NCBI GenBank assembly: GCA_019694515.1
Contig: JAIBBU010000007.1
Coordinates: 6,573-70,572 of the forward strand
Direction of reading: 5' to 3'
Origin: Oligoflexia bacterium
Lineage (GTDB): Bacteria > Bdellovibrionota_C > UBA2361 > JBGSMV01
Length of the DNA stretch: 64,000 nt
The position numbers were made by a program, and so were the translations under genes. The notes below the pieces were generated by a model. That model searched no databases and had not been told where the DNA came from. It saw only the letters and a program-made list of their open reading frames with translations. Shown piece by piece: positions 47,057 to 64,000 of this stretch (position 1 is the stretch's first letter; each line of letters opens with the position of its first letter).

Positions 47057-47084
47057 GATTAGCCTTAGTCAAAATTAGATTTTT

Positions 47085-47113: not shown

Positions 47114-47175
47114 GCCTGATCAGCACTTCGCGCCGGCTTTAAGTGCAGAGGTTAAAGTTGCAGGGCAGCGCCGTG

Positions 47176-47802: not shown

Positions 47803-47921
47803 CTCCAGTATTCAATTAATATGGCCTGCCGCGGTATGACGTATTACAGTCTGAAGCCGAATATACATAACAGAGACATGCTCATTTTTGGGAAATAACG
47901 CCGAGAACTAATACAATCGAT

Positions 47922-49424: not shown

Positions 49425-49561
49425 AGGCGATTGGTCCGCGGCATTGGGCGATCCGTGACAAGTTTTCGGGTTCCCATCCGCGTGTTCCAAATTCTATTAT
49501 AAGCCTATTTGGCGCATCGCCTGCTGTGTGCAGGCCTGTGTCGGTATCTGAGTAGGCAGCA

Positions 49562-51667
49562 ATGAATCTATTAGCTCTATTCTTTGTGCTCGCGGCAATT
49601 TTTTGGTGCGCGGGCTTGCCGGCCTTCGAGTTTGCAGTGGGCGTCATGCTGCTTACTCCGATTATAGCTTATTTGGTGCAGCTGCAGTTTGGGGCCTTTC
49701 TTTGGGTTCACTTTCTAATCATGGCGCTGCTGATCGTCGCAGCCTATTTCTCGGTACCGCGCCGCCGGGAGCTGGCGAAGAGGCGCGAGCTAAAGCAGCT
49801 CTTTCCGTGCGGCATATTCGCTCTGGCATATCTGATTCTACTTTCTTTGTGTTTGCGCTGGCCCGACTTCATTGCGATGGGGGAGCGGCTTCGTGACTAT
49901 GCCATCCTGGGGTCAAGCGTGCTTGACCCCGTGCATATCAAGGAGCCCTGGATGTCAGGGGCATTGCTCTATTACTATGCCTATTGGTACCGCTTTGGCG
50001 CCATGCTGAGCACGGCTTTGGCCATGCCGGTATGGAGCACCTACCACGCTCTGGTTGCCTTTAGCTTGGCGCTGTATTTCACCTGTGCTTTTCTAATTTT
50101 TCAACGTCATTTGGGATTCAAGAGTGCCAGTGCGCTCTTTGCTGCACTATTGGTGGCGATCGGATCCAATGTTGAGGGCATGCTCAATTTCTTTCGTTCC
50201 GACAGCAATTGGTGGGGGCCTTCACGGGTAATTCCTGGAGCAATTAACGAATTTCCCGCCTGGTCTTTTCTGCTCGGCGATTTACATCCGCATTATCTGA
50301 ATCTTTGTTTCTTTCCGCTAATCTTGCTGCTTTTTTTGGAAGTCGCGAACCATTCTGCAATTCACATCCAGTTACGTCCTTCCCCCCAAAAGGTTTTGTT
50401 TTACGGGGCGCTGATCCTGATCCCCCCGCTTTGGCTCTATAATGCCAACGCTTGGGAGGTTCCAATGTGGCTCGGGCTCGTTGGAATCTTCGGACTGCTC
50501 CTCTTGGTTTCAACTCGCGGACGGATGTTCAGCATTGGCTATCGCCTCCTCCCGCATTTACGAACATTTGTCACGCCGGCGAGTCTTTTAATTGCCGGTT
50601 TAATCTTGCTGACTGCGGTCTCGCTGCTCCTCTCCTGGCCTTCAATACCCGGCGGAACTGAAAGCAAGTTTAGTTTAGTGCGTGATCCGATTCAGCGCTC
50701 GCATTCATGGAATCTAGTGCAGCATTGGGGATTACCGCTCGCCCTAATTGCAATATCTACAATCATGCTCATTCCCGATCTTAGCTGGCGCTGGCTGGGG
50801 GGCGCGTTTCTGGCGGGATCGCTGCTATTTGAGGATGGTTTGACGTTTCTTTATCTGCTGTTGTTTCTGAATTTGCTGCGTTTGATTCCTATTTTCGGAC
50901 TGGGAGCGACAAAGGCCAAACACCCCGACACCAAGAACTTGCTTTTTAATGCGGTTGGGCTCTGGAGCATCATGCTTTTGATCATACCAGAGCTGGTGTT
51001 CTTGGACGATGCATACGGCGGTGAAAACGAGCGCATGAATACGATCTTTAAGATCTACACCACCGACTGGTTCTTGCTGTACTGCTTTGCGTTCTACTTA
51101 ACGGCGCGCGCATTTGCAGCCTGGATTTCTACGGCCCATCGCCAGCGCGTCCTCCGCGTCGGTCAGGGCATCTTAGCAATCTGCTTGATCGGTTTTTTTG
51201 TACACACCGCCCGTGAGCTAAGACCCACAGTGGATCGAGCAGATGACGTGCCGACGGAGGAGGGGCTTTCGACTGTCCAAAAACTCTTCCCGGGGTCCAG
51301 CGAAACGATACGATATCTGCGCGGTTTGCCTCCGGGGGTCGTACTCGAGGCCCAGGGAAATCCCTACGATTACACCACTTTCGTGAGCACCTTGGCGAAT
51401 CACCAGAGCTTCCTTGGATGGGCCAATCACGTGGAGCTACTGACGCGGCAATACGCCGAGGTGCGGCGTCGGGATAAGTTGACCGAGGAGCTTTATCGCG
51501 AGGGTGATTGCTCCAACAAGGCCGCGGGGCTGCGTCGTGAGGGTATCGAGTATCTGGTTTACGGCAGTCTAGAGAAGCGCAAGTACCACGGAGTTGATGC
51601 CGCGAGCTTTGGATGTTTAAAGACGCTCTTTAGTTCGGGGGACTATACTCTGTACGGACTACCGTAA
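49562..51667 (+). CDS. Large polytopic membrane protein, DUF2298 (Chlor_Arch_YYY, TIGR03662-like)
   Basis: GALLYYYAYWYRFGAML is the YYY motif. 701 aa with more than 12 TM. Confidence 0.7.
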   Translation: MNLLALFFVLAAIFWCAGLPAFEFAVGVMLLTPIIAYLVQLQFGAFLWVHFLIMALLIVAAYFSVPRRRELAKRRELKQLFPCGIFALAYLILLSLCLRWPDFIAMGERLRDYAILGSSVLDPVHIKEPWMSGALLYYYAYWYRFGAMLSTALAMPVWSTYHALVAFSLALYFTCAFLIFQRHLGFKSASALFAALLVAIGSNVEGMLNFFRSDSNWWGPSRVIPGAINEFPAWSFLLGDLHPHYLNLCFFPLILLLFLEVANHSAIHIQLRPSPQKVLFYGALILIPPLWLYNANAWEVPMWLGLVGIFGLLLLVSTRGRMFSIGYRLLPHLRTFVTPASLLIAGLILLTAVSLLLSWPSIPGGTESKFSLVRDPIQRSHSWNLVQHWGLPLALIAISTIMLIPDLSWRWLGGAFLAGSLLFEDGLTFLYLLLFLNLLRLIPIFGLGATKAKHPDTKNLLFNAVGLWSIMLLIIPELVFLDDAYGGENERMNTIFKIYTTDWFLLYCFAFYLTARAFAAWISTAHRQRVLRVGQGILAICLIGFFVHTARELRPTVDRADDVPTEEGLSTVQKLFPGSSETIRYLRGLPPGVVLEAQGNPYDYTTFVSTLANHQSFLGWANHVELLTRQYAEVRRRDKLTEELYREGDCSNKAAGLRREGIEYLVYGSLEKRKYHGVDAASFGCLKTLFSSGDYTLYGLP

Positions 51668-51685
51668 TTTAAACTGGAGGTGCTC

Positions 51686-52441
51686 ATGGTTGCGCAGGTG
51701 GAACTTAGACCGCTGCGAGTTGTCGAGATCCTGGATCGTGCTTTCAAAGTAGTGAAGGAGAATCTGCAAGCTCTGATGACTCTTGCTTTGATCCCGGCCG
51801 TCTTTACGGCAGCCTCGCATGTAGTTGGCCCAGATCACATCGGCTTGATGATGTTGTTCGGGATATTGGGCGCTATCGCAGGATTGTATATTAACCTGCT
51901 TTATCTGTTCATTCTTGCAGACGGCTGGCACGGCAGCCCTAGTTCTATCAGCAGCGCACGTGAAAGGACCACTTTTGGATTGGCGGTTCGATGGTGTCTC
52001 TTGTCGGTCTGGGTGGCAATTATCGGCGGGCTGCTTTTGCTTCTATTGATCATTCCGGGTTTGATCTACCTCGTTAATCGCACTCTGGCTTATACCGTTC
52101 TTGTGCTGGAAGGATGCAGCATTTCTGAGGCGCTAAGTAACAGCAAGATGCTGATGACCGGGGAGCGCTGGTATAAGCTTAGTAGTCCTACGATGCGCTT
52201 GGGAGGCCTCTGGATAATCTTGATGGTTATTTGGCTTACCGGGTATGTTTTGATAGGGGCCTTAGCGGTGCCGTTCATCTCGGAAGCGGGAATTGTGAGC
52301 GGCATTGCGCAGGGAGCCCAGGTGTTCTTTCAATCGGTGCTCTCGTGCTTCGGGATAGCGGCCTTGATCGGTTTTTATTACGACTTGCGAAATCGATATG
52401 AGGGTCATGATCTGAGCCAACAAATCAGCCAACTCTCCTGA
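51686..52441 (+). CDS. Hypothetical polytopic membrane protein
   Basis: Start at the ATG at 51686, with GGAGG 5 nt upstream. Six to seven TM. Confidence 0.55.
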   Translation: MVAQVELRPLRVVEILDRAFKVVKENLQALMTLALIPAVFTAASHVVGPDHIGLMMLFGILGAIAGLYINLLYLFILADGWHGSPSSISSARERTTFGLAVRWCLLSVWVAIIGGLLLLLLIIPGLIYLVNRTLAYTVLVLEGCSISEALSNSKMLMTGERWYKLSSPTMRLGGLWIILMVIWLTGYVLIGALAVPFISEAGIVSGIAQGAQVFFQSVLSCFGIAALIGFYYDLRNRYEGHDLSQQISQLS

Positions 52442-53175
52442 TGCGCGGGCTTTTTTGGCTGATTATAGTGGTAGCGCTGGGGTGCTCGGCAGCATTGGCT
52501 GAAAGGCTGCCACCGGACGGGTCACAAAAGCTTACCCAAATTCTTTCTGCTCCGGAGTTTCAACCGCGCTCGGTCAACCCTGGCTGGCGTGAGCGTTTGG
52601 GACAGTACCTGATGCACCAAGCGCAGGAATTTCTCAATCGGATCGAAGATTGGGGTCGCAATAATGCCATCGATTCCTGGCTGCCGCAGGGTCTGAGGAA
52701 CTTTCTGGGTAATTTGGCCGCGATGCTAAAACAGCTGGGGGAGCTGCTCGGCGCTCTGGCGCAAACTTTGGTGCTCGTGCTCTTGCTTGCAGCACTCTGG
52801 ATCTTTGCTCGAATTGCGTATTCATATCTGCGCCCATATTTCCAAGAGTCCGGCAACATCGCGCCGCTGGGGGAAGAGCGCGCGGAGCTTACTGCGGCCA
52901 ACTTAAATGCCTATCTGAGCGCCGGGCAATACTCGGCGTTACTGGAAGGTTTACGGCTAATTTTGCGAGGCCAGTTCGAAAGACGCTATGCTCTTCAGAG
53001 CGGAATGACGGACCGTGAAATGCTAGGCGCCGCGCCCCGCGGACTTGCTGCCTTGGAGCTTTTCCGGGACGCGAGCTTGCTCTTCGAGCAGCGCGCCTTC
53101 GAGGGTGGCACTCTCGATGCTGATGCGGTCGTAAGCTTATTTGGACGATTTTGTAGAATCGCAGATCGGCCGTGA
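52441..53175 (+). CDS. DUF4129-like protein (MoxR-operon associated, N-terminal signal/TM)
   Basis: Position immediately upstream of the DUF4350-like, MoxR and DUF58 genes. One internal TM. TGATG overlap with the upstream gene. Family assignment from context and architecture. Confidence 0.5.
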   Translation: MRGLFWLIIVVALGCSAALAERLPPDGSQKLTQILSAPEFQPRSVNPGWRERLGQYLMHQAQEFLNRIEDWGRNNAIDSWLPQGLRNFLGNLAAMLKQLGELLGALAQTLVLVLLLAALWIFARIAYSYLRPYFQESGNIAPLGEERAELTAANLNAYLSAGQYSALLEGLRLILRGQFERRYALQSGMTDREMLGAAPRGLAALELFRDASLLFEQRAFEGGTLDADAVVSLFGRFCRIADRP

Positions 53176-54326
53176 AGAAACGATATGTCGCGCTGATTGT
53201 TGTAGCCCTGCTGTTAATGCTGCTGGGGCCTCTGTTTCAAAAGCCTGCAGCGCCAACTTCATTTGCCGCAAATCCCCCGGGCGCTAAAGCATTCTTCTTG
53301 TTTTTGAGCCAAGTTGGAACGCCGGTCGAGCAATGGCTCTATCCTTTTAAAGATCTCGTTCGAGCGCCGCAGGGTTCCGTTCTCATTCTGGCAGCACCAA
53401 TTACTCCCGTCGCGGGGCATCAGGGGCTGCTTGATTGGGTCAGGAAGGGAAATACTCTAGTGCTTCTCGATGACCAGAAGAATTCGATCTTTGATGCTCT
53501 TGACCTCGAATGGAAAGCGGCTGAAGGACGGCAGTTACTGATGCAAGCAGCAGGCTTCGCTGACCAGGGCGTGCCCGTCAACTGTAGCGGAGAATTCAAT
53601 TCGATCTGCGAAGGGGTGCGCTTAATCAGCACACCGCTGGGACATTTCGAAACGGTCCCAGCGGGCGCTCAGATCTTGGCAGGAACAACCGGCAATGCGT
53701 TGGCCGTCGGTATGGCGCTAGATCGGGGCAAGCTGTTCGCCTTTCCAGGGCCCGAACCGCTGCTTAATTCGAATATCGATAAATTCGATAATTTACGCTT
53801 GCTCTTTCAGATCGTATCGAGCGGCAAGCGCATCCTGATCGATGAGTTTCATCATGGATTCACGGCACCCGTTGCGGCCGAGAATGCTGCACGCTGGGAT
53901 TCGATTTTGATGCTGAGCGGTTATCTAACGCTGCTGCTGGTCCTGGCAGCCCTCAGTCGATCTGTGCGCTTTGGACCGCCGACGCCGGAGCTGCCCGCGC
54001 CGCACTCATCCAGCGTGCAGTTTACCCAGGCCCTCGGTTTGCTGTATGCCGAGAACGGAGCGCAGGATATGCTGAAATACTACCGCGCAGCGTGGAGATC
54101 GAGATTGCAGCGTGCTTTCGGAATCCCCACCAGTCTTGCTCACAGCAGTGCGGTTGAGGAGCTCTTGCACCGCCGGCTGCTGAACGCGGCCTCGGCAGCG
54201 GCTATTATTAGGACATCCAAAGCGATTGATGCAGGCGCACCTCTGGAAGCCTCGCAGCTTCAGGCGCTGGAGAGAATTTTCACAAGTTCGGGAGAGATAA
54301 ATGCAAGACCGGGAGATCATCAGTAA
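53172..54326 (+). CDS. DUF4350-like protein (MoxR-operon associated)
   Basis: N-terminal TM. Conserved ILIDEFHHG motif. Internal TM before the C-terminal domain. GTGA overlap with the upstream gene. Confidence 0.55.
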   Translation: MKKRYVALIVVALLLMLLGPLFQKPAAPTSFAANPPGAKAFFLFLSQVGTPVEQWLYPFKDLVRAPQGSVLILAAPITPVAGHQGLLDWVRKGNTLVLLDDQKNSIFDALDLEWKAAEGRQLLMQAAGFADQGVPVNCSGEFNSICEGVRLISTPLGHFETVPAGAQILAGTTGNALAVGMALDRGKLFAFPGPEPLLNSNIDKFDNLRLLFQIVSSGKRILIDEFHHGFTAPVAAENAARWDSILMLSGYLTLLLVLAALSRSVRFGPPTPELPAPHSSSVQFTQALGLLYAENGAQDMLKYYRAAWRSRLQRAFGIPTSLAHSSAVEELLHRRLLNAASAAAIIRTSKAIDAGAPLEASQLQALERIFTSSGEINARPGDHQ

Positions 54327-55284
54327 TTTAACAACCAAGGTAGTGACGCAGATTGGCGAGACCGTGCTTGGTCAAGCCAAGGTAAGCGAGCTGCTGTTCG
54401 GAGCGCTCTTGATTGGCGGTCATGTGCTGCTTGAGGGGCCTCCGGGGGTGGCCAAGACGCTATTGGCGCGCTGTTTTGCAGAAACTCTCGGACTTAGCTT
54501 TCGCCGTATCCAATTCACACCGGACTTGATGCCCTCTGATATCACCGGGGTGAATGTGTTCGATCGGGAAAGTTCGACCTTCAGATTCGCACCCGGTCCG
54601 CTCTTCGCGGACATTGTTTTAGCCGATGAGATTAATCGCACTCCCCCCAAGACGCAGGCGGCGCTGCTTGAGGCCATGGAGGAACATCGTGTGACTGTGG
54701 ATGGAAAGCCCTATGAGCTGGGTGAACTTTTTACCGTTGTAGCAACGCAAAATCCAATTGAAATGGAGGGGACCTTTCCATTACCGGAAGCACAGCTGGA
54801 CCGCTTCTTGTTCAAGCTCCAGATTTCTTATCCCGACAAGACAGCGGAACAGCAGATGTTGGAGCGATTTAGTTCCGAACCGCAGCTCAGAAGCTTGCAG
54901 CCCAGTCCCGAGCGGAGTCCTGGCCGGGCTGGCTTGCAGTTAAGTGACCTGCTAGAAGCGCGCGCTGCTTTGCGGCGGGTACGGCTGGCTCCAGCGATCT
55001 CCGATTATGTGCTGCGATTGGTCAGCGCCACCCGTACCCACGGCGCCCTCGAACTGGGCGCTAGTCCCCGCGCCGGACTCGGACTGGCCTTGGCTGCTAA
55101 GCTTAGCGCGGCGCTAGAGCGGCGTGACTTTGTGATCCCGGACGATGTGAAGAAAGTTGCGCGCCCAGTACTGCTGCACCGCCTCATTCCGAAGAGCGAC
55201 CTATACGATTCCGCTGACGGAGTAGAATCGGTTTTGGATCAGCTCCTAAAGACTACCCCAGTGCCTTCAAAGGTGGAGGGGTAA
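54301..55284 (+). CDS. MoxR-family AAA+ ATPase
   Basis: Walker A GPPGVAKT. ...ADEINRTPPKTQAALLEAMEE (Walker B/sensor). Typical MoxR length of 327 aa. Confidence 0.9.
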   Translation: MQDREIISNLTTKVVTQIGETVLGQAKVSELLFGALLIGGHVLLEGPPGVAKTLLARCFAETLGLSFRRIQFTPDLMPSDITGVNVFDRESSTFRFAPGPLFADIVLADEINRTPPKTQAALLEAMEEHRVTVDGKPYELGELFTVVATQNPIEMEGTFPLPEAQLDRFLFKLQISYPDKTAEQQMLERFSSEPQLRSLQPSPERSPGRAGLQLSDLLEARAALRRVRLAPAISDYVLRLVSATRTHGALELGASPRAGLGLALAAKLSAALERRDFVIPDDVKKVARPVLLHRLIPKSDLYDSADGVESVLDQLLKTTPVPSKVEG

Positions 55285-55291
55285 TGCGCAG

Positions 55292-56656
55292 ATGAAAAAG
55301 AACCCCCGACAGGCGCTGTTGTTGCCGCTGCTGACGGTTAGAGGGGTCACATTCCTGGCAGTTGGTTTGATCTTTCCGCTGCTTGGGGTCGCCTTGGATC
55401 TGCCGTTCAATGCAGTCGTCACGCTCTGCAGTCTTTGGCTGGTGCTCGCGTTGGTGCTCTTTGGAAGCGAGTGGCTCAAACTCAGCCGCACAGTTCAGGC
55501 GCTCAAGGTACGGCTGACCCTCCCCGGCCGGCTGCCCGCGCTAAAGGCGATCAACGCGGAGGTGCAGGTGGAGAGCCGTGTCAGCTCGGACGCCACCGAA
55601 TTGATGCTGAGATTCGCACCGGTTACAGGAGTGCGCTTCGTGCAGCCGCAGCTAAACTTCATGCTTCAACGCCGCGGTACCCTGGTCTCGCAGCCGCTGC
55701 AGATACGGCCGATCATGCGGGGCAGCGTGGAGATCGTCAACTTCGACGTGCGCGCTCGGCTGAGGCGGGGCCATCTCACTGTTCAGACGGCGTTGCGACT
55801 AGAACCAGGGGTGAGAACTGTCGTCACTCCGGCCTCCGACGGCAACGACCGTCGAATTAGACGTAGCGCGATTAAATATATCTCCGGTAACCGTCTCTTT
55901 CATTATAATGCGGGGGAGGGGCGTGAATTTGATTCTCTAAAATACTACTCGCCCGGAGAAGATCTGCGCCGGGTTGACTGGAAGCGCAGTGCGCGCAGTG
56001 ATGCGCTGCTTGTGCGACTGTATCGTCCTGAATCACACCAGCGTGTAATGATCGCCATCGATTGTAGCCGCCGGATGTCAACCCGCGTGGGGGAACGTCT
56101 CTATCTAGACTATGCCGCTGATGCTGCCGCGCATCTGGTTCAGACGGCCTACCGCTGTTCGGACCAGGTCGGCCTTTTGGCTTTTGATCATAGGCGCCTT
56201 TGCTTTCGTCCCTGTGCTCAGGGGGCCGCGCATGCCGGCAAGCTGCTTGAAGAACTGACCTCCATTCAGCCGGGAGACTTTGAGGCGGACTATCAGATTG
56301 TGGCGCAGTGTGCAGCAGCGTTGCGCCGGCGCACGATGCTGGTATTGATCACTAGTGTTTCCAATAGTGCAGCAGTCGAGAGTTTGTGCGCCAGTTTAAC
56401 ACGGCTAAAGAAGAAACATCTGCCGCTAGTGCTGGCGATCGCCGATCGTGACCTGATCGCGCTGAACAGCGAGCCGGCGCGTAGCATCGAGGAAGCTTTC
56501 ATCATCAGCGCTGCTAACCAGCAGATCACAGGGTTACGCACCCGACTAAACGGGCTGGCCCGTCAGGGTATCGAATGCGCATACGGCGATGCGCTTGAAC
56601 TGGAATCTTTGCTTGAACGGCGCTATTTCCAATTAAAGCTCGGCGGCCGGCTCTAA
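55292..56656 (+). CDS. DUF58 (vWA-like) protein, MoxR partner
   Basis: DLRRVDWKRSARSDALLVRLYRPESHQRVMIAIDCSRRM is the DUF58 signature. N-terminal TM pair. Confidence 0.8.
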   Translation: MKKNPRQALLLPLLTVRGVTFLAVGLIFPLLGVALDLPFNAVVTLCSLWLVLALVLFGSEWLKLSRTVQALKVRLTLPGRLPALKAINAEVQVESRVSSDATELMLRFAPVTGVRFVQPQLNFMLQRRGTLVSQPLQIRPIMRGSVEIVNFDVRARLRRGHLTVQTALRLEPGVRTVVTPASDGNDRRIRRSAIKYISGNRLFHYNAGEGREFDSLKYYSPGEDLRRVDWKRSARSDALLVRLYRPESHQRVMIAIDCSRRMSTRVGERLYLDYAADAAAHLVQTAYRCSDQVGLLAFDHRRLCFRPCAQGAAHAGKLLEELTSIQPGDFEADYQIVAQCAAALRRRTMLVLITSVSNSAAVESLCASLTRLKKKHLPLVLAIADRDLIALNSEPARSIEEAFIISAANQQITGLRTRLNGLARQGIECAYGDALELESLLERRYFQLKLGGRL

Positions 56657-56753
56657 AGATACAATAAATCGCCGCTAGTAGTTGCCGCACCAGCATCTTC
56701 GTATATATATATAGCAATAAGATGTTGTGCCGATCGTCGTTCCATAGAGGGGC

Positions 56754-57824
56754 TTGATGGAGCCCGAAACAGGTCCTCAGCATATCGCTCCGGAAGAGGA
56801 TCGGTCCGGAATAACAAGATCCAATCCGGGAATATTAAGTGCAATCCAGGGCGCATTTAGCGCTGGCATGACCCGCTTTCGCGCGGAGCCGGGTGAAACA
56901 CCTGAAATTGACCCAACCGCGCTGCCGCGCAAGGCGCTCTCATTCGGAATTGACCTAGAGGAGGAGCTCCCGAAGGAATTCGTGCGTCATGCTCAGCCGG
57001 TGGTGCTGCAGGGTCGGGTCGACGCTCCGGTGTTGCAGTTCTATGGGGGGCTCGGTCAAACCTCGCTGCCGTGTTTGGAATTGGCACGGCTCTTTAATCA
57101 ACAATCCGGTTATACCTGTGAGCTTTACAGCTTGGAGGGTCACCAGGGCTCCTGGCGTAAGATCATTGCTCAGTCGGAAATCCACTGGGTGAGGGATGTA
57201 ATCGAGCGCGCAGAGAGGGTCTTGGCAGAAACTGGAAATCCCACTACGGGATTCGGGTTTTCGACCGGTGGTTTGACGTTGCTAAAAGCGGCCGCAGAGC
57301 GCCCTGAATTGTTCAGTAAATTGGTCCTGATCGGCACACCGCTTGAATTGCGCAACCGTGTCCACGTGGCTGCGCTCGAAGTGGCCGAGATGTTGGCCTC
57401 CCATTTCACCGCATTGCGTATGCTCACACCCTATATCCCGGTGCCCCTGGCGTGGAACGATCTGCTGGTGAAGAACACCTTCAATGCCAAGGGGCGACGG
57501 CGCCTAGAATTTCTGCCGCTCTCCCGATTTCTATGTCTAAAGCGGCTACAGCTGAAGACCGTGGCATCCTTGACCCGGGTTTCATGCCCCGTAATCTTCG
57601 TACATGGCAGTGAAGACGAGTTTTCTACTCCAGCTACGATCAAGAAGCACTTTGGGCGGCTCGGTACCTCAGATAAATATCTGCACCAGGTAAGTGGTGG
57701 ACACATGTTAATCTTGGATGGCGATGTAGTAAGGCTCTACGGTGAACTGGAGCGCTGGTTAGAGGCTAGAAGCGTGCCAGCAGCGGTGCGCGGGGCGAAA
57801 GGGGCCAGTAACGTCAGCCAGTAA
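56754..57824 (+). CDS. Alpha/beta-hydrolase fold protein
   Basis: Nucleophile elbow GFSTGG. VIFVHGSEDE. Catalytic His in GGHM. Confidence 0.7.
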   Translation: MMEPETGPQHIAPEEDRSGITRSNPGILSAIQGAFSAGMTRFRAEPGETPEIDPTALPRKALSFGIDLEEELPKEFVRHAQPVVLQGRVDAPVLQFYGGLGQTSLPCLELARLFNQQSGYTCELYSLEGHQGSWRKIIAQSEIHWVRDVIERAERVLAETGNPTTGFGFSTGGLTLLKAAAERPELFSKLVLIGTPLELRNRVHVAALEVAEMLASHFTALRMLTPYIPVPLAWNDLLVKNTFNAKGRRRLEFLPLSRFLCLKRLQLKTVASLTRVSCPVIFVHGSEDEFSTPATIKKHFGRLGTSDKYLHQVSGGHMLILDGDVVRLYGELERWLEARSVPAAVRGAKGASNVSQ

Positions 57825-59533
57825 GCCGCCCCGAGGGCCAGGCCGAAAATCAATTTCACAGCGGTTGGAAGCTGCTCGTAGGGTGAAACAAAACCCTCCA
57901 CTAAACCTGCGACGACCAAACCCATGGAGCTGAATATTATCAGATCAAACAATGCTCGCCCGCGAAGCTGCAGAGATTTAACGCGGGTTAGATCTCGGGG
58001 ATGTAATAGGGCGTCGCCCAGGGCCAGGCCGCACCCTGCGGCGACCGCAATAATCGACATTTCCAAGAAACCGTGGGCCACTACAAAATTGAAGAGCCGG
58101 TGCGCCATGCCATAGTGGGAGAGCGCTGCAAAGATTCCTCCGAGGGAGGCGCCGTTGAAGACCAGAACCAGAATTGTGCCGAAGCCCCCCGCTATTCCCA
58201 GAGTAAATGCGAGGATCGAAACCTGAATGTTGTTAGTCATGATGCGTGAAGACGATACGGCATTGAGCCCCTTGATGCCTTCAGTCCATAACCTTCCCTC
58301 AGTTAGTGATTGAATCGCGTCTTCCGACAGGATCAGCCAGGAGAGGTTCGGGTTCAGAATCACTAATGCTGCCGTTAGCCCGGCGCTGATCGTCATCAAG
58401 CCGATTGCGCCCATAATGAAGGGCCACGCTTCGCGATAGCCATGGCGCACCCGATCGATCCATGGAGCTTGCCGCCGATCCTCACGATCTACTAACCGCC
58501 GTCCATAAATTACGCGCCGTCCGAAGCGTACCAACGAAGCTGCGCGGAGTGCTTCCTGCGTGTCGGGGAAAAAAGTGGAGAGTTCGGAATAAAGCTGACA
58601 CAAACGCTGATAAGCCAGGGCGATGCGATGGAGAGTTTGCGAAGACAGCATCCCCGTGGCGCGTCGGAGCTGTCGAATTTCACCTTCAGCTAGATTCAGA
58701 TCATACTGCAGTTTTCGCCATTTAATCGGATCGGAGCTCTGGGCGCGATGGTATTGCTGGGATTTTTCAGGCTGTGCTCGCTTAAAAAGTTCGTCCAACC
58801 ACTGATCAAGCCGCTCAGGACTCGACCCCTGGGCTGGGGGCAAAGCTTTCGGCTGTGCCTGCGTGATGGAGCGGATTAACTGCTGCTGCAGTTCGGCTTT
58901 TTCGGCGGCATGAATCTGCTCCCTGCGCCGCAGATAAGCTTCGAGTACCCGGTAGTGTTGTAGCGGCAGAGTCAGGGCGTCAGTAGCTACAGCGGATTTG
59001 TGGATTAGATCTTCGCGTCCCTTGAAGTCATATACTACGAGAGTACGTGCAACCAGATCTCCAATACGCTGGGAGCGGGGTGTAAAAAGCATGCTAATGA
59101 AGCCCACCGCGCCGACTCCAGGCAGCAGATCGATCAGCATAAAGGCATTGCGCAGGAAGGATGAGGCCAGTGAGATTGAAAAACCACGCTCGTCCACCAC
59201 GCGGAGCCCCACCAGCTTCTTCCCCGGAGTAAGCCCGTCGCGCCGAACCTCAAAATAGATCGCATAAGCCCATTCGGTCAGGAAGAAGAGTAGCACGATG
59301 CAGGCTAGTAGGGCGCTGCTGATATGAGAGCCCCCATTTTGGGCAACGCTTCTGACAGCGCCCCAAATATTCAGCGACTCCATTAGGGGTGTAAGCGATA
59401 AAATCAGATAGATTAAGAGCAGAATTATGGTCCAGCGGATGGCGAAATCGATTAAGTACGCCATCGCCCGGCTGCCAAAGCTAGCCGGCTGGTAATCGAT
59501 CCAGGCCTGTTCGGGAAGCAAAATGCGCATCAC
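57737..59533 (-). CDS. Fused RDD-family / SpoIIM-like (DUF95) membrane protein
   Basis: N-terminal RDD (AYLIDFAIRW...GLRVVDERG...LIDLLPG). C-terminal TNNIQVSILAFTLGIAGGFGTILVLVFNGASLG matches the stage II sporulation protein M / DUF95 core. Confidence 0.7.
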   Translation of the reverse strand: MMRILLPEQAWIDYQPASFGSRAMAYLIDFAIRWTIILLLIYLILSLTPLMESLNIWGAVRSVAQNGGSHISSALLACIVLLFFLTEWAYAIYFEVRRDGLTPGKKLVGLRVVDERGFSISLASSFLRNAFMLIDLLPGVGAVGFISMLFTPRSQRIGDLVARTLVVYDFKGREDLIHKSAVATDALTLPLQHYRVLEAYLRRREQIHAAEKAELQQQLIRSITQAQPKALPPAQGSSPERLDQWLDELFKRAQPEKSQQYHRAQSSDPIKWRKLQYDLNLAEGEIRQLRRATGMLSSQTLHRIALAYQRLCQLYSELSTFFPDTQEALRAASLVRFGRRVIYGRRLVDREDRRQAPWIDRVRHGYREAWPFIMGAIGLMTISAGLTAALVILNPNLSWLILSEDAIQSLTEGRLWTEGIKGLNAVSSSRIMTNNIQVSILAFTLGIAGGFGTILVLVFNGASLGGIFAALSHYGMAHRLFNFVVAHGFLEMSIIAVAAGCGLALGDALLHPRDLTRVKSLQLRGRALFDLIIFSSMGLVVAGLVEGFVSPYEQLPTAVKLIFGLALGAAYWLTLLAPFAPRTAAGTLLASNQRSSSP

Positions 59534-59588
59534 CTCTAGGCTACTATAACCGCGTGCCGAGGCGTACTCGTTATCCTTTAAATCGAGC

Positions 59589-61541
59589 CTACTTACGGGT
59601 CAAAAGCGCCACATTGCTGAAACCGCTCGGATCTCCACCCCAGCCGGGCTTCCAAGGGGTGTGCAGCAATGCATACTTAAAGAAACCTTTAACCGTCATT
59701 TGGGTATAATCCGGTACCCACCAACCCCGCAGCTTCAACTTGCGAATCTCGAAACCCTCCGGAAGATCGGGATCGTTGTCCTTCCAGTCTTGGAGAATGT
59801 ACTTGTAGTCTTTCTTTTGTTCCTTCGTAGCTTCATAACGCAGCGGCAGATTTCGCAGATACCAGACGGTCGGCCACACCGATTCACCGCTGACTAGCAC
59901 CTGATCCCGCTTCTCCTCAGGCTGCAGCAGCAGCTTCGTGCGAATATCTCGCACCACCTGATCGTACTCGTAGGTGGTATGAACCTGGCTCAGGAGCTCG
60001 TTAGGTTTCCCAGCGTAGGTGAAATTAGTCAGGATTGAGATATGCAGCAGATATAATCCGATCACCACAAAGCCGGTCGAAATCAAGCTGACACGCGCCG
60101 AATCACCGAGCCACGAATATACCAGCGCAAAACCGGTCAGCAGGGCGCCATACACGAAAAACATCAGATTGTGGGACATGCCATCGTCCAACAAGCCAAA
60201 CAGCAGGCCCAGAAAGATGCTGCAAATTCCAGCGCCGCCGATTAAGTATTCCAACGGAAATACGCGCCAGTCCTTAATCGGATTTTTGGCGAAGTAATCG
60301 TCAAAATATAGGGTCAAATACACCAACCCACAGACGAAGGGATAGATCGAGAGCCAGGGGGTTTTCTCCCCGGCGTAGCTGTAGGCAAAGAAATTGGCAT
60401 AAAAGAAATAGCCGAAGAAGGCCAGTTTACGCTCGCCCCTCAGCAGATGATAAGTTGTAATGATCAGCGACTGGCCGACCAAGAAAATCAGCCCGAAGAT
60501 GTCGATCCCATCTTTAAGTTTGAAGAGTTTCCAAAGTTCGAATTCCGGAGTGGGCTTGGTTTGTGACATTAGCGCGCAGAGCAGAGCGGCGCTCAGACAG
60601 GACGCAATTGCAATTCTGAAGCGATCGCTGGCGGTTGAGAGCAGTAGCAGCGTTTGTGCTGCCATTACAATAATGAAAGGCAGTTCGTACCAAGAAAGCA
60701 CATAGAAGTGGAACATGAAGGGCCCCACAATTCGTTCTTTATTGTGCTGATCTAACCAATAGCTGAAACCCTTGCGGTAGAGTCCGTCTAAGATTCCATC
60801 TGTGTACCGGAAGCCGGAGGAATAGAAGTAACAAAAAATGAAGGCTGCTGCCGCAAGTCCGAACAGGACGCCAGCCCAGTTGGCTCGGACATAACGACCG
60901 AGCTTGCCCGCGCATGTATCTCCCGCCAAGCCGACGACTCGGCTGATAATTACTTCATAGAAAAGATAAGCCACTAAAAGTGCTACCGTAATATATACGT
61001 TGGCCTTGACTGCCCATTGCACAGCAATGCCGCAGAGAAAAAATAATGCGCGCTGTTTTTCGCGGGATAACGTTGCCCCGTAGAGCATCAAAATCCACCC
61101 CAGTAATACCAATAGATCATGGTGAATCAACCTGGACCAGTAAACGAGTGTGGGCGAGAGGGCCACAGCACCGGTCAGCGCCAGCAATGCGGTTGATGAA
61201 AAATAACGCCGGAAAATAAATGGGACAAAAATGAAGATCGATCCCAGAAATGCAATCGGCGCCCGGATCGACCAGTCTGAGATCCCCAGGATTGCGTAAA
61301 CCAAAGGATATAGGTTGTACATCATCGGGCCATGGAGCATCGGGTCGTAACGATAAAATTTCTCATCGGGCCAATCGAAGAAATAAATACCGTACATGGC
61401 GTGGAGTGATTCATCGTGATGAATCGGCCGCACATCGAGCTGCAGCCAGCGTAATAGCAACCCCGCCCCAACTAGCAGGAGAAAGACCGCCCATTCGCGG
61501 TTTGTCAGGTATGATGCATTGCCCCGTTCTGATGTGCTCAT
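59589..61541 (-). CDS. Large polytopic membrane protein, TIGR03663-like (glycosyltransferase-39-like), usual partner of DUF2298
   Basis: The N-terminal loop DVRPIHHDESLHAMY is characteristic. 650 aa with more than 12 TM. Confidence 0.65.
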   Translation of the reverse strand: MSTSERGNASYLTNREWAVFLLLVGAGLLLRWLQLDVRPIHHDESLHAMYGIYFFDWPDEKFYRYDPMLHGPMMYNLYPLVYAILGISDWSIRAPIAFLGSIFIFVPFIFRRYFSSTALLALTGAVALSPTLVYWSRLIHHDLLVLLGWILMLYGATLSREKQRALFFLCGIAVQWAVKANVYITVALLVAYLFYEVIISRVVGLAGDTCAGKLGRYVRANWAGVLFGLAAAAFIFCYFYSSGFRYTDGILDGLYRKGFSYWLDQHNKERIVGPFMFHFYVLSWYELPFIIVMAAQTLLLLSTASDRFRIAIASCLSAALLCALMSQTKPTPEFELWKLFKLKDGIDIFGLIFLVGQSLIITTYHLLRGERKLAFFGYFFYANFFAYSYAGEKTPWLSIYPFVCGLVYLTLYFDDYFAKNPIKDWRVFPLEYLIGGAGICSIFLGLLFGLLDDGMSHNLMFFVYGALLTGFALVYSWLGDSARVSLISTGFVVIGLYLLHISILTNFTYAGKPNELLSQVHTTYEYDQVVRDIRTKLLLQPEEKRDQVLVSGESVWPTVWYLRNLPLRYEATKEQKKDYKYILQDWKDNDPDLPEGFEIRKLKLRGWWVPDYTQMTVKGFFKYALLHTPWKPGWGGDPSGFSNVALLTRK

Positions 61542-61545
61542 GGTA

Positions 61546-63963
61546 CTAACCTGTCATTTCAGTTCGAGACAGCGCACTCAGCGCCGAATCCCGAACAGTA
61601 TAAATCTTAAAATCACCACTAACAAAAAGCGGCGGAAACAGATCCGATCGCTCCTCGAATTTTCTTAGACCCTCGGCAGAGTATGTGGCGCGTTCTACGT
61701 CGCCCACCACAATAACCTGGGCCGCATACTTGCGCGCAATCTCTAACGCCAAATTAACATTGCCCGTATTGTAAAAAGTTTTTACATCGGCCTTGCGGCG
61801 TTCAAGGTCGCCATTTGAGGAGCCGCGCTGACTGGCATGATATTGCCACCCCAATACCACCGGAATTCCGGTGTGCATTACGATCCGGCTAAACTCTCGG
61901 TAGCCGTCGCCTTGGGCCTCAAACATCGTCGGCAGCCCCGGAACATGCTGAGCCAGCCACTGAATGCCTTTGTATTCATCGGCCTTCTTAGGATCAGCTC
62001 CAAGAAAGGCCTGACCATCTAATGCGGGCTTGGGACCGGGTACGCGGTTAAAGCCCATCATTACGTACAAATTGATCAGGCTTCCGCTGCCGGCGATCAG
62101 GAGTAACGCAGAAATCAAGCACAGTCCCGCGACGCGCGGTACTTTGAGCCCCAAGGTGGCGCTGTGAGCGCGCAGCGCAGTAATAAGACCCGGCAGCGTT
62201 AACAGCGCCGCAGCAGCCAAGAATATCCAGGTAGGAATAAAAAACTTAAAGATCGTGTTCATGCGATCGTTCAAGAAAACCAGCTCTGTGGTGCTGATTA
62301 CGAATCCCCCCATCACTGCTAAAACACCGCCAAAACGGATCGCCGGACGGGTGGATGCCACGAGGTAAAGAACCATGCCGGCCGCGATGAGCAGCGCGGC
62401 GAGCGTCTCGATCGCCCAGGGCATATTGCGAATGCCGCTGGCGAAACTGCATCCGGTCAGAATGAAGGGGTAGCAGACCAAAACTGCGCCGACTAATGCC
62501 GGTAAGCGATTGCGGCGCAGCGTGCTGCGTAGCGCACGAACTTCGAGACTCGCAGCGAGGAGAATCGGAACAATCCATAGTCCGAAATGCCTTAAGATCT
62601 GCCAGACCGAATTAAATTCGGAGGATTGTACCCAGCCATAGTGGGTGTGAATCGCCTCGCCCGAGGAGAGCACGAAGGGCACCACACTTACGAGTGCCAA
62701 CGCCAGGATGGAGAATCCATCGAACAATAATTCGTCGAGCATCTTAGCGGCTGGCACCCGTTCTGAAATGAACTGTATCAGTCGCAGCAGAAAGATTAAC
62801 GCCAGTAGTGCGCCATATATGATCAGATCCCAGGAGTTGATCACGAACAACGAGCCAAATGAAACGCCTAAGAGAGCGCGCAGCAGGAATGCGCCGCGGC
62901 TGCCCGCACCTGGAGGCTCAAGAAAAAGCTGCGAAGCTAGAAATAGCGTAACGATGCCGAAAGGGATCGCCATAAAATGCGCGTGCAGATCGGCAAATAG
63001 AATCGACCAGAGCGGATACTCGGTAAATGAAGGCGAGGTGAAGAGCCGGGTGCTGGCCCAAAATAGATCGAAGCCCATTTTGATCGTGCCGAAGCAGGTC
63101 AAATACAGCACCTCCAAATTGCTTAGAATGATCGCCGCGAAGGCGCAAAGCGCGGCGATCCAGAGGCGTGCGGCAAAGGCTGCGAAGAGCGAGAAGGCGG
63201 CTGAGCAAAGCCATCCGGCCACCGTAGCGATGGCCAGATTATAGGCTACCCCGGGCAGCACGGCCGTGCACTTTTGCATCACACCGAAAAGCAGCGATCC
63301 GAAATAATAGTAATGCATCGCATTGCGCGCAGCCCAAGGGTCCTGAGGAGGAGGATAGTCCAGCCGTGCAAAAAAATTCAGGAATGAAAAATCCATCGGT
63401 TTTTCACCCCAGAAAACTTCGGGTTGAAAGGAGCGCACCACCAGGAAGAAGAAAAAGCAGCTCAGCCAGAATACCTCTGAAACTAGCAACGCCGGTCCCA
63501 TCTCCTCGGCCAATTGGCGCCATGATCCCCATCGCCGCATCACGAAGGTGTGACTGATCGTAAGCAGCACGGCTAGGATGCCGAATAGGCTGTGGGCGCG
63601 AAGCGTTGCCAGTTCAAAATAGGAAAGCACCCATGTAATCAGAGTTAATGCTAATAGTCCGAGCGCTTTACTCACGCCAAATCCGCGATCGGCGGCCTTA
63701 GGGAGAGCCGCGGCCAGGAATGGGAAGATCCACAGTCCTGCGATCTCAAGAATACAGAGCCACCAAAGCGCCTGGAGCAGTGTGGGGACCCGCAGGAATG
63801 CGCGGCTGCCCTGCGCATCAGTAGAGTCGGTTTGCATGATTTCCCTGAGCGTCGGAAGCATGCGCTCCTCGGGGGGGTGCAGCATCCTGGCTTTCAGATC
63901 AGTCACGCTAAGATGCTGCTGATTCTTGAAGATCGTCACTTTGGGATGATCATAAACCGACAA
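61546..63963 (-). CDS. Large polytopic membrane protein, DUF2298 (YYY-motif) family, second copy
   Basis: DPWAARNAMHYYYFGSLLFG is the YYY motif. 805 aa. Lies 4 bp upstream of the TIGR03663-like gene. Confidence 0.7.
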   Translation of the reverse strand: MSVYDHPKVTIFKNQQHLSVTDLKARMLHPPEERMLPTLREIMQTDSTDAQGSRAFLRVPTLLQALWWLCILEIAGLWIFPFLAAALPKAADRGFGVSKALGLLALTLITWVLSYFELATLRAHSLFGILAVLLTISHTFVMRRWGSWRQLAEEMGPALLVSEVFWLSCFFFFLVVRSFQPEVFWGEKPMDFSFLNFFARLDYPPPQDPWAARNAMHYYYFGSLLFGVMQKCTAVLPGVAYNLAIATVAGWLCSAAFSLFAAFAARLWIAALCAFAAIILSNLEVLYLTCFGTIKMGFDLFWASTRLFTSPSFTEYPLWSILFADLHAHFMAIPFGIVTLFLASQLFLEPPGAGSRGAFLLRALLGVSFGSLFVINSWDLIIYGALLALIFLLRLIQFISERVPAAKMLDELLFDGFSILALALVSVVPFVLSSGEAIHTHYGWVQSSEFNSVWQILRHFGLWIVPILLAASLEVRALRSTLRRNRLPALVGAVLVCYPFILTGCSFASGIRNMPWAIETLAALLIAAGMVLYLVASTRPAIRFGGVLAVMGGFVISTTELVFLNDRMNTIFKFFIPTWIFLAAAALLTLPGLITALRAHSATLGLKVPRVAGLCLISALLLIAGSGSLINLYVMMGFNRVPGPKPALDGQAFLGADPKKADEYKGIQWLAQHVPGLPTMFEAQGDGYREFSRIVMHTGIPVVLGWQYHASQRGSSNGDLERRKADVKTFYNTGNVNLALEIARKYAAQVIVVGDVERATYSAEGLRKFEERSDLFPPLFVSGDFKIYTVRDSALSALSRTEMTG

Positions 63964-64000
63964 ACTTTCGTCGGCTAAGTCGTCATCGAAGAAACTTGAA

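What the first reader, a model, noticed from the sequence alone, without database searches (positions are those of the whole stretch)
49562..63963. MoxR/DUF58 chaperone-like module with a fused RDD/SpoIIM-like gene, flanked by DUF2298 and TIGR03663-like giant membrane proteins
The gene order is: a DUF2298 (YYY-motif) protein, a membrane protein, a DUF4129-like and a DUF4350-like protein, MoxR, a DUF58 protein, an alpha/beta-hydrolase, a fused RDD/SpoIIM-like protein, a TIGR03663-like protein and a second DUF2298 protein. The DUF2298/TIGR03663 pairs are best known from Chloroflexi and Archaea as putative glycosyltransferase-like machines. Finding two DUF2298 copies around a MoxR module suggests a co-functioning envelope glycosylation and assembly system. 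A third ArnT-like GT39 gene sits at 35.7 kb. The fusion of RDD with a SpoIIM-like domain in one 598-aa protein is uncommon.
Basis: partly seen in the sequence, partly recalled or inferred. Interest (0 to 1): 0.55.

Follow-up and report, generated by a model that had tools for sequence, protein, structure and literature searches.

The report
MoxR membrane module inside glycosyltransferase cluster
Two separately conserved, poorly understood gene sets – a MoxR ATPase/DUF58 membrane module with a fused RDD–SpoIIM protein, and a cluster of GT-C-type membrane glycosyltransferase-like genes – lie interleaved in one uncultured Oligoflexia genome, but relatives keep them apart, so the pairing looks like a local accident of gene order rather than one machine.

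Summary
All ten genes exist with the stated order and nearly all stated domains: DUF2298 x2, DUF4350, MoxR, DUF58, alpha/beta-hydrolase, RDD+SpoIIM fusion and TIGR03663. DUF4129 is supported only through homologues. Two corrections apply. Gene J runs off the window end (973 aa in a sister scaffold). The short DUF2298 copy is below the TIGR03662 cutoff.

The source is an Oligoflexia (Bdellovibrionota) MAG. The region holds two independent conserved modules.

1. B-C-D-E-F with convergent H matches, by annotation, the mycobacterial Rv3689-Rv3695 cluster.
2. TIGR03663 (Agl23 family) plus a short and a long DUF2298 paralogue recur together in four relatives. The DUF2298 model (pLDDT 89) matches only GT-C glycosyltransferases.

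No relative combines the two modules. DUF2298/TIGR03663 were absent from all 80 genome loci and all 5 close contigs around H homologues. MoxR-module genes were absent from all 4 relatives' glycosyltransferase clusters. The MoxR block fills a slot that holds unrelated genes elsewhere. Only the tight spacing (12 and 55 nt) suggests local co-transcription.

The RDD-SpoIIM fusion is a minority state but recurs in about 16 Bdellovibrionota-like proteins and 10 other genomes.

Verdict: ordinary; new members of known kinds. Interest 0.3.

The parts
49562..51667 (+). A: short DUF2298 paralogue (701 aa). About 13 TM helices plus a C-terminal soluble domain; GT-C fold. Belongs to the glycosyltransferase cluster.
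   Evidence: Pfam DUF2298 E 2.3e-47. TIGR03662 score 225 bits, below the 300-bit cutoff. AF2 model pLDDT 89, pTM 0.93. The top 21 Foldseek PDB hits are all GT-C enzymes; the best is AftA 8if8, E 4e-6. Orthologues at 38-49% identity sit next to TIGR03663 genes in L085, L086, L090 and L091.
51680..52441 (+). B: polytopic membrane protein (251-253 aa; the likely start is the ATG at 51686, after a GGAGG). First gene of the MoxR module.
   Evidence: No Pfam hit. Hydropathy suggests about 5-6 hydrophobic helices. An orthologue at 34% identity holds the same position in L088. That orthologue hits UPF0259 weakly, E 0.001.
52441..53175 (+). C: bitopic protein with a divergent C-terminal DUF4129 domain.
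   Evidence: DUF4129 at E 0.053 on its own. 26 of 54 homologues hit DUF4129, best E 1.3e-6. Orthologue in L088.
53172..54326 (+). D: DUF4350 protein. N-terminal anchor, a 215-aa domain, a second TM helix, then a C-terminal tail.
   Evidence: Pfam DUF4350 E 2.5e-16. Hydropathy. Orthologue at 37% identity in L088.
54301..55284 (+). E: MoxR-type AAA+ ATPase (327 aa, soluble).
   Evidence: AAA_3 E 4e-63 and AAA_lid_2 E 5e-21. PDB 2r44 E 1e-68. Walker A GPPGVAKT and Walker B IVLADE are visible in the sequence.
55292..56656 (+). F: DUF58/VWA-like protein with an N-terminal two-helix membrane hairpin. Its MIDAS motif is non-canonical.
   Evidence: DUF58 E 9.5e-25 and VWA_2 E 2.8e-6. Residues 257-263 read DCSRRMS. 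In the other 56 homologues scored, all 56 have R at the fourth position and 55 have G at the third (DxGRxM-like), where the canonical motif is DxSxS.
56754..57824 (+). G: alpha/beta-hydrolase. Not part of either conserved module; a local insertion between F and H.
   Evidence: Hydrolase_4 E 6.6e-14. No homologue in any of the 83+ related loci. A 97-nt AT-rich spacer with a (TA)5 palindrome lies upstream.
57720..57728 (.). Point where two public scaffolds of the same sample abut with a 9-nt overlap.
   Evidence: blastn of L081 and L084 against the window.
57737..59533 (-). H: fused RDD (N-terminal) - helical linker - SpoIIM-like (C-terminal) membrane protein, 597-598 aa. Convergent partner of the B-F operon.
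   Evidence: RDD E 1.1e-20 and SpoIIM E 1.9e-24. 16 fused homologues. The split call in L084 comes from a 10-N scaffold gap. AF2 model pLDDT 76. No PDB fold match.
59589..61541 (-). I: TIGR03663/Agl23-family GT-C-like membrane protein (650 aa).
   Evidence: TIGR03663 174 bits against a 126-bit cutoff. PMT_2. Family profile hits ArnT 5ezm, E 0.0019. H41-H42-D43-E44 is invariant after TM1.
61546..64000 (-). J: long DUF2298 paralogue, truncated by the window end (973 aa in full).
   Evidence: DUF2298 E 1.6e-72; TIGR03662 420 bits, above cutoff. Full length in L084 7075-9996.
35723..37429 (+). Separate PMT-like GT-C gene (568 aa), 12 kb upstream and unlinked.
   Evidence: Pfam PMT E 2.9e-7, 30.7 bits against a 22.7-bit cutoff.

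Best explanation
The region is a juxtaposition of two independent, separately conserved gene modules.

**Module 1: a membrane-bound MoxR system**
- It consists of B (polytopic membrane protein), C (DUF4129), D (DUF4350), E (MoxR AAA+ ATPase) and F (membrane-anchored DUF58/VWA-like protein). The convergent gene H is also part of it.
- In H, the RDD and SpoIIM-like membrane proteins are fused into one chain. In most bacteria these two are encoded as a divergent gene pair.
- Inferred mechanism: the cytoplasmic MoxR hexamer docks on the DUF58 adaptor at the membrane. It uses ATP to assemble or remodel a complex of the co-encoded membrane proteins, with RDD-SpoIIM as core or client.

**Module 2: a periplasmic-face glycosylation cluster of GT-C-type proteins**
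- It consists of I (TIGR03663/Agl23 family), a short (A) and a long (J) DUF2298 paralogue, and a 1062-aa double-PMT protein just beyond the window.
- It presumably uses polyprenyl-phosphate-linked sugars.

**How the two relate**
- The MoxR block, in its native convergent layout, occupies the variable slot between I and A.
- In this genome it is probably read through from the glycosyltransferase genes. No conserved functional coupling is indicated.
For: **Shown**
- Domain calls.
- L088 (H 44% identical) and the P0134 contig carry H convergent with DUF58-MoxR-DUF4350-C-B, in the same layout. They have no G and no DUF2298/TIGR03663.
- Of 80 genome loci around H homologues, 51 have MoxR, 57 have DUF58 and none has DUF2298 or TIGR03663.
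- I, an A-type and a J-type orthologue co-occur in L085, L086/87, L090 and L091, with no MoxR-module genes within 10 kb.
- At least 17 contig lengths are shared between the I-homologue and A-homologue lists.
- L085 has the same J->I ... <-A frame, with cNMP-binding, PPDK and Na/H-exchanger genes in the slot.
- DUF2298 has a GT-C fold. TIGR03663 resembles ArnT.
- RDD and SpoIIM genes are adjacent in about 60 of 80 loci and fused in 10.
- Mycobacterial Rv3691-Rv3695 carry the same annotations and are co-regulated in M. chelonae (PMC8191103). Rv3694c and Rv3695 co-purify with the same bait (PMC8093794).

**Inferred**
- The ATPase-adaptor-client mechanism. It rests on established knowledge of MoxR/VWA pairs such as RavA-ViaA, NorQ-NorD and CbbQ-CbbO.
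Against: **For coupling in this genome**
- A-to-B spacing is 12-18 nt and I-to-H spacing is 55 nt.
- No promoter- or terminator-like site lies in either spacer.
- In L088 the same module has intergenic regions of 260-400 nt.
- The module therefore appears to have lost its own upstream regions and to be co-transcribed with DUF2298/TIGR03663 genes. That could reflect real lineage-specific coupling.

**Limits of the sampling**
- Sampling of close relatives is thin: 4 glycosyltransferase-cluster relatives and 5 H relatives, with 10-kb flanks only.

**Limits of the mechanism**
- The DUF58 domain lacks a canonical MIDAS motif, so the textbook VWA-adaptor mechanism may not apply.
- In three close relatives H stands alone, without the MoxR genes. 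H is therefore not an obligate MoxR client.
- No function has been shown for any component.
Confidence: 0.7

Rival explanations
1. The MoxR module and the flanking GT-C proteins form one envelope glycosylation-and-assembly system. MoxR/DUF58 would act as chaperone or assembly factor for the giant glycosyltransferases, or RDD-SpoIIM would work with Agl23-like I in lipid-linked sugar handling.
For: - Both halves of the MoxR module sit directly downstream of GT-C genes on the same strand, with spacers of 12 nt and 55 nt.
- No terminator-like sites lie between them.
- The arrangement appears in two independent scaffolds, L081 and L084.
- MoxR systems are generally maturation factors for specific partner proteins (established knowledge).
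Against: - No relative examined combines the two modules: 0 of 80, 0 of 5 and 0 of 4.
- Each module keeps its own internal architecture elsewhere.
- The slot between I and A holds unrelated genes in L085.
- The MoxR module occurs in many phyla where none of the sampled loci carries DUF2298/TIGR03663 within 10 kb.
Confidence: 0.15
2. The juxtaposition is an assembly or binning chimera rather than a real genomic arrangement.
For: - The two public scaffolds meet with only 9 nt of overlap at 57720-57728.
- L081 differs from the window at 31 positions, while L084 differs at none.
- L084 contains a 10-N gap with a 9-nt duplication.
Against: - The key junctions, A-B and H-I, each lie inside a single scaffold.
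- Hydrolase G reads in frame across the 57720-57728 join, with a plausible C-terminal helix.
- Joining restores a complete module with the same convergent layout as L088.
- GC content is continuous across the region.
Confidence: 0.05
3. The MoxR/VWA module is an anti-phage or conflict system of the MoxR-vWA ternary type.
For: - E gives a bpMoxR Pfam hit at E 9e-9.
- E gives weak IetA/IteA hits.
Against: - The hits cover only the generic AAA core and score far below the family cutoffs.
- None of the other six proteins (B, C, D, F, G, H) hits PADLOC.
- No beta-propeller or effector domains are present.
- The module is chromosomal and syntenic across phyla, alongside housekeeping neighbours.
Confidence: 0.03

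Closest known systems
Mycobacterial Rv3689-Rv3695 cluster (membrane protein, Rv3691 DUF4350, Rv3692 MoxR2, Rv3693 DUF58, Rv3694c SpoIIM-like, Rv3695 RDD)
   Same: - It has the same set of families and the same layout, with the SpoIIM/RDD genes on the opposite strand to the MoxR operon.
- The genes are co-regulated as a block in M. chelonae (PMC8191103).
- Rv3694c and Rv3695 co-purify with the divisome protein Rv0954 (PMC8093794).
   Different: - Here RDD and SpoIIM are one polypeptide, and an alpha/beta-hydrolase gene is inserted.
- Homology to the mycobacterial proteins was compared only at the level of family annotation, not by sequence.
- Function is unknown in both.
Other MoxR (MRP subfamily) + DUF58/VWA operons, e.g. 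the Bacteroides Bat operon and Rhizobium RL3499-RL3502 (from general knowledge); the mycobacterial moxR1 operon (PMC12067865); solved MoxR structure 2r44
   Same: - A MoxR ATPase is followed directly by a DUF58 gene, and the other products are membrane-associated.
- E is close to PDB 2r44, E 1e-68.
   Different: - The partner set differs: DUF4129, DUF4350 and RDD-SpoIIM here, instead of BatA-E-type VWA/TPR proteins or transglutaminases.
- The MIDAS motif is degenerate.
Haloarcula hispanica Agl23 (TIGR03663 family), with the GT2 enzyme Agl22
   Same: - I passes the NCBIfam TIGR03663 cutoff.
- Relatives L090 and L091 have a GT2 gene next to the TIGR03663 gene, echoing the Agl22/Agl23 pairing.
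- Purified Agl23 translocates a lipid-linked oligosaccharide in vitro (PMC11182771).
   Different: - The host is bacterial (Oligoflexia).
- The model match covers positions 3-323 of 435.
- I carries an invariant HHDE loop-1 motif and resembles ArnT. It could therefore be a transferase rather than, or as well as, a flippase.
- No GT2 gene is present in this window.
GT-C glycosyltransferases (AftA, ArnT, PglB/AglB/STT3, DPY19, ALG12)
   Same: - The DUF2298 model matches these enzymes and nothing else at high probability.
- It has a multi-helix membrane domain followed by a soluble C-terminal domain.
- Acidic residues E108 and D112 are invariant in the loop after the early helices.
   Different: - No sequence-level similarity to any solved structure or to TIGR03663.
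- TM-scores are only 0.3-0.5.
- Donor, acceptor and catalytic residues are unknown.
Bacillus subtilis SpoIIM (engulfment protein)
   Same: H has a Pfam SpoIIM domain at residues 394-551.
   Different: - The host is not a spore-former.
- No SpoIID or SpoIIP partners were seen.
- The domain is fused to RDD and linked to MoxR.
- H is a family member by domain, not an orthologue in function.

Membership tests
MoxR (MRP-type) AAA+ ATPase | AAA_3 core with Walker A/B motifs, plus AAA_lid_2 | tested here: met
   AAA_3 E 4.3e-63 over positions 1-131 of 131; AAA_lid_2 E 5e-21. GPPGVAKT and IVLADE are in the sequence. PDB 2r44 E 1e-68.
MoxR (MRP-type) AAA+ ATPase | Adjacent DUF58/VWA partner gene | tested here: met
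   F starts 7 nt after E. It hits DUF58 and VWA_2.
DUF58 / VWA-like adaptor | Pfam DUF58 match above the gathering score | tested here: met
   87.5 bits against a 23.4-bit cutoff.
DUF58 / VWA-like adaptor | Canonical MIDAS motif DxSxS | tested here: not met
   The window protein has DCSRR. In the other 56 homologues scored, all 56 have R at the fourth position and 55 have G at the third, giving a DxGRxM-like pattern.
Rv3689-Rv3695-type MoxR membrane module | Co-located membrane protein, DUF4129, DUF4350, MoxR, DUF58, SpoIIM-like and RDD genes | tested here: met
   All are present. The same block is in L088. The family list for mycobacteria comes from PMC8191103.
Rv3689-Rv3695-type MoxR membrane module | Direct sequence homology to the mycobacterial proteins | not tested
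Only annotations were compared.
TIGR03663 / Agl23 | NCBIfam model score above the curated cutoff | tested here: met
   174 bits against 126.25 bits; model positions 3-323 of 435.
TIGR03663 / Agl23 | Lipid-linked sugar flippase activity | not testable with these tools
   Activity is known only for the Haloarcula protein (PMC11182771).
TIGR03662 (Chlor_Arch_YYY) / DUF2298 | Model score above cutoff; YYY motif | tested here: met
   J scores 420.5 bits against a 300.25-bit cutoff and has HYYYF. A scores 225 bits, which fails the cutoff, and has YYYAYW. A passes Pfam DUF2298.
TIGR03662 (Chlor_Arch_YYY) / DUF2298 | Linkage to a TIGR03663 gene | tested here: met
   Linked in the window and in L085, L086, L090 and L091. 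At least 17 contig lengths are shared between the two homologue lists.
GT-C glycosyltransferase superfamily (for DUF2298) | GT-C membrane fold | tested here: met
   Model pLDDT 89, pTM 0.93. Foldseek ranks 1-21 are all GT-C enzymes at probability 1.0, with E as low as 4e-6.
GT-C glycosyltransferase superfamily (for DUF2298) | Catalytic acidic residue in the first extracytoplasmic loop; transferase activity | tested here: inconclusive
   E108 and D112 are invariant. Their superposition on known catalytic residues was not examined. Activity cannot be tested with these tools.
SpoIIM (sporulation function) | Pfam SpoIIM domain | tested here: met
   86.9 bits against a 26.9-bit cutoff.
SpoIIM (sporulation function) | Spore-former context with SpoIID/SpoIIP | tested here: not met
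   The host is named Oligoflexia. No such genes appear among the window ORFs scanned against Pfam.
RDD family | Pfam RDD domain with conserved Arg/Asp residues | tested here: met
   74.8 bits against a 24.1-bit cutoff. R22, D29, D135, R156 and D159 are invariant in 17 sequences.

The most novel reading that the evidence does not exclude
In this Oligoflexia lineage the MoxR/DUF58/RDD-SpoIIM module has been captured into the operons of a GT-C glycosylation cluster. It would then act as a dedicated ATP-driven assembly or quality-control factor for the giant DUF2298/Agl23-like membrane enzymes, or for the handling of their lipid-linked sugar substrates. That would give the first functional client for this widespread orphan MoxR module.
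Probability: 0.12. Interest if true: 0.6.

Novelty: new member of a known kind. Interest (0 to 1): 0.3.

Why it matters
**The MoxR module**
- The B-F plus H module is found across Actinobacteria, Bacillales, Chloroflexota, Gemmatimonadota, Acidobacteriota and Bdellovibrionota. No function is known for it.
- The RDD-SpoIIM fusion is a Rosetta-stone hint that these two membrane proteins work as one complex.
- This fits their near-universal adjacency and the joint pull-down of Rv3694c and Rv3695 in M. tuberculosis.

**The glycosyltransferase cluster**
- The GT-C fold assignment for DUF2298 sharpens a testable hypothesis about a polyprenyl-phosphate-sugar glycosylation pathway outside Chloroflexi and Archaea.
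- So does the recurring trio of an Agl23-like gene with a short and a long DUF2298 gene.

**The specific claim of the finding**
- The claim that the two modules form one machine is not supported.
- The locus itself is therefore of modest interest.

Tried and rejected
- **Metagenome scan with I:** gave only two short contigs, of no use for synteny.
- **Exact-sequence look-up of H with the GTG start:** found nothing, because the gene call starts one codon later.
- **Profile-profile comparison of DUF2298 with TIGR03663:** no relationship, so the two are not detectable paralogues by sequence.
- **Sequence search of the DUF2298 profile, F and D against the PDB:** no hits.
- **Foldseek of the H model against the PDB:** nothing below E 0.4, so no solved structure informs RDD or SpoIIM.
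- **PADLOC scan:** only generic AAA hits, so a defence-system reading was rejected.
- **Promoter and terminator scan:** counts were at chance level and no site lay in the A-B or I-H spacers, so it is uninformative beyond that.
- **Repeat search:** no mobile-element ends around the MoxR block. The best inverted repeat is simply the conserved NERMNTIFK motif of the two DUF2298 paralogues.
- **Split H gene call in L084:** this looked like evidence against the fusion, but it comes from a 10-N scaffold gap.
- **Literature searches for DUF2298 and TIGR03662/3:** returned no functional study.

Full report
**1. Observation**

The ORF list gives ten genes in the stated order:
- A 49562-51667 (+)
- B 51680-52441 (+)
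- C 52441-53175 (+)
- D 53172-54326 (+)
- E 54301-55284 (+)
- F 55292-56656 (+)
- G 56754-57824 (+)
- H 57737-59533 (-)
- I 59589-61541 (-)
- J 61546-63963 (-)

Pfam and NCBIfam confirm most of the domain calls:
- DUF2298 for A (E 2.3e-47) and J (E 1.6e-72).
- DUF4350 for D.
- MoxR (AAA_3 E 4e-63, AAA_lid_2) for E.
- DUF58 plus VWA_2 for F.
- An alpha/beta-hydrolase for G.
- RDD (residues 16-162) plus SpoIIM (residues 394-551) in the single 598-aa protein H.
- TIGR03663 for I (174 bits against a 126-bit cutoff). NCBI now names this family 'flippase activity-associated protein Agl23'.
- TIGR03662 for J (420 bits against 300). A scores only 225 bits and fails that cutoff.

C hits DUF4129 only at E 0.053 on its own. 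However, 26 of 54 homologues found by an exhaustive search hit DUF4129, so 'DUF4129-like' is fair. B has no family. The gene at 35.7 kb is PMT-like.

**2. Source and assembly**

Proteins identical to I and A are named 'Oligoflexia bacterium' MAG proteins and lie on a 112-kb NCBI contig.

Two ENA scaffolds of the same sample cover the region:
- L081 corresponds to window 45292-57728, with 31 mismatches.
- L084 corresponds to window 57720-64000 and beyond, with 0 mismatches.
- They overlap by only 9 nt, just downstream of the stop codon of H.

The join is biologically coherent. G reads through it in frame. It also reunites a module whose layout is identical in L088.

L084 shows two further points:
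- J continues beyond the window, to 973 aa.
- J is divergent from a 1062-aa protein with two PMT-type modules.

A split call of H in L084 comes from a 10-N scaffold gap, not a real stop codon.

**3. Two modules, not one**

*Loci around H homologues in species-representative genomes*:
- 51 of 80 carry MoxR and 57 of 80 carry DUF58 within 10 kb.
- None carries a DUF2298 or TIGR03663 homologue.

*Close fused H homologues* (36-47% identity):
- L088 and the P0134 contig have H convergent with DUF58-MoxR-DUF4350-C-B.
- Orthology for L088 was confirmed by tblastn at 29-55% identity.
- Neither has G or any GT-C gene adjacent.
- In L089, L092 and L093, H stands alone.

*Relatives of I* (40-60% identity):
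- All keep I together with one A-type and one J-type DUF2298 gene. These are L085, L086/87, L090 and L091.
- PMT, GT87 or GT2 genes are often nearby.
- No MoxR-module gene lies within 10 kb in any of them.

L085 has the same J->I ... <-A frame as the window. There, a cNMP-binding gene, PPDK and a Na/H exchanger fill the slot.

The window arrangement is therefore best read as an intact MoxR block lying in a variable spacer of a glycosyltransferase cluster. G is an extra insertion with no counterpart anywhere.

**4. What argues for local coupling**

- The A stop is 12 nt from the GTG start of B, and 18 nt from the ATG that follows a GGAGG.
- I-to-H spacing is 55 nt and J-to-I is 4 nt. B-C, C-D and D-E overlap.
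- The pattern scan found no promoter- or terminator-like site in these spacers, though it is a weak test.
- In L088 the module has upstream regions of 260-400 nt of its own.

Co-transcription with the GT-C genes in this genome is therefore likely. That is the only evidence for functional coupling.

**5. Nature of the parts**

*DUF2298*
- A model built from 48 sequences has pLDDT 89 and pTM 0.93.
- Its top 21 PDB matches are all GT-C glycosyltransferases: AftA, DPY19, STT3/AglB/PglB, ArnT and ALG12. All have probability 1.0, with E as low as 4e-6.
- Sequence methods see no PDB relative and no link to TIGR03663.
- Invariant residues include G107-E108...D112, Y138-Y139, W234...D240-x-H242-x-H244 and M492-N493...K497.

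*TIGR03663*
- The family profile weakly matches ArnT (E 0.0019).
- It has an invariant H-H-D-E motif after TM1.
- The Haloarcula member Agl23 is a putative hexose-P-dolichol flippase. Purified protein flips a lipid-linked oligosaccharide in vitro (PMC11182771).

*MoxR module*
- E is a typical MoxR, close to PDB 2r44 (E 1e-68).
- F has an N-terminal membrane hairpin and a soluble VWA-like domain.
- F's MIDAS position reads DCSRRMS. The other 56 homologues show a DxGRxM-like pattern instead of DxSxS: R at the fourth position in all 56, and G at the third position in 55. Canonical metal-mediated docking is therefore doubtful.
- Hydropathy suggests C and D are bitopic and B is polytopic.
- H has RDD helices, a basic helical linker of about 220 aa, and five to six SpoIIM helices.
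- The H model (pLDDT 76) has no PDB fold match.

**6. The fusion**

Among the 80 genome loci:
- 10 carry a single-ORF RDD->SpoIIM fusion. These come from Gemmatimonadota, Longimicrobium, a Burkholderiales MAG and Acanthopleuribacteraceae.
- About 49 have RDD and SpoIIM as adjacent divergent genes, as in mycobacteria.
- About 16 show no RDD nearby.

In addition, about 16 fused proteins at 36-47% identity come from Bdellovibrionota-like contigs. The fusion is thus a recurrent minority state.

It supports a physical RDD/SpoIIM complex. This agrees with Rv3694c and Rv3695 both co-purifying with the divisome protein Rv0954 (PMC8093794). In L093 the fused gene follows minCDE, which is a single anecdote.

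**7. Mechanism (inferred)**

- By analogy with characterised MoxR/VWA pairs, the MoxR hexamer would use the membrane-anchored DUF58 protein as an adaptor. It would then assemble or remodel the co-encoded membrane proteins.
- The GT-C cluster would glycosylate an envelope target on the periplasmic face, using polyprenyl-phosphate sugars.
- None of these steps has been shown experimentally for this locus.
- A defence-system reading is not supported.

**8. Comparison and novelty**

- The MoxR block corresponds, by annotation, to mycobacterial Rv3689-Rv3695. That cluster is co-regulated in M. chelonae (PMC8191103).
- The TIGR03663/DUF2298 pairing is the one defined by the TIGRFAM models themselves.
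- Both modules are therefore new members of known, functionally uncharacterised kinds.
- The interleaving is unique among the loci sampled but lacks conservation.
- Overall interest is 0.3. The most novel reading not excluded is MoxR as a dedicated factor for the GT-C machinery, at about 12% probability.

Noticed in passing
window 24407-33614: Type III secretion-like gene set: two FHA/YscD-like proteins (24407-25747, 25824-26855), a YscJ/FliF-family protein (26979-27854) and a FliN/YscQ-like protein (28406-29434). Several small ORFs downstream were not annotated.
   Followed up: no
window 61546-64000; L084 7075-9996 and 3840-7028: Gene J runs off the window end. Its full length is 973 aa, with an extra N-terminal TM helix and a 190-aa soluble domain. 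Divergent from it is a 1062-aa protein with two PMT-type GT-C modules.
   Followed up: partly
L090 14072-18097: In a relative, the long DUF2298 paralogue is fused to PMT/PMT_2 modules in one 1341-aa protein. This is a natural fusion linking DUF2298 with PMT-type GT-C domains.
   Followed up: no
window 56060-56080 (F residues 257-263) and the other 56 homologues scored in related loci: The DUF58 proteins of this module type replace the canonical MIDAS motif DxSxS with a conserved DxGRxM-like motif. R is at the fourth position in all 56 other homologues scored and G at the third in 55. The window protein has DCSRRMS.
   Followed up: partly
L093 3673-7848: A fused RDD-SpoIIM homologue lies 118 nt downstream of minC-minD-minE on the same strand, with no MoxR genes nearby. 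In L089 and L092 the fused gene is also solitary.
   Followed up: no
window 57720-57728 and 58281: The public ENA scaffolds of this sample break or carry 10-N gaps at points bridged in the window by 9-nt overlaps. The left scaffold differs from the window at 31 positions and the right one at none, which suggests strain heterogeneity or a hybrid assembly.
   Followed up: partly
window 56688-56727: An AT-rich palindrome with (TA)5 lies in the 97-nt spacer between F and the inserted hydrolase gene G. It may be G's own promoter region.
   Followed up: no
window 51026-51052 and 62245-62271: A 27-nt inverted repeat, 93% complementary, lies between the two DUF2298 genes. It encodes the invariant NERMNTIFK motif of both paralogues.
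   Followed up: yes
L090 7834-8577 and L091 7525-8604: A GT2 (Glycos_transf_2) gene sits next to or near the TIGR03663 gene in two relatives. This recalls the archaeal Agl22 (GT2)/Agl23 pair. No GT2 was found among the window ORFs scanned.
   Followed up: no
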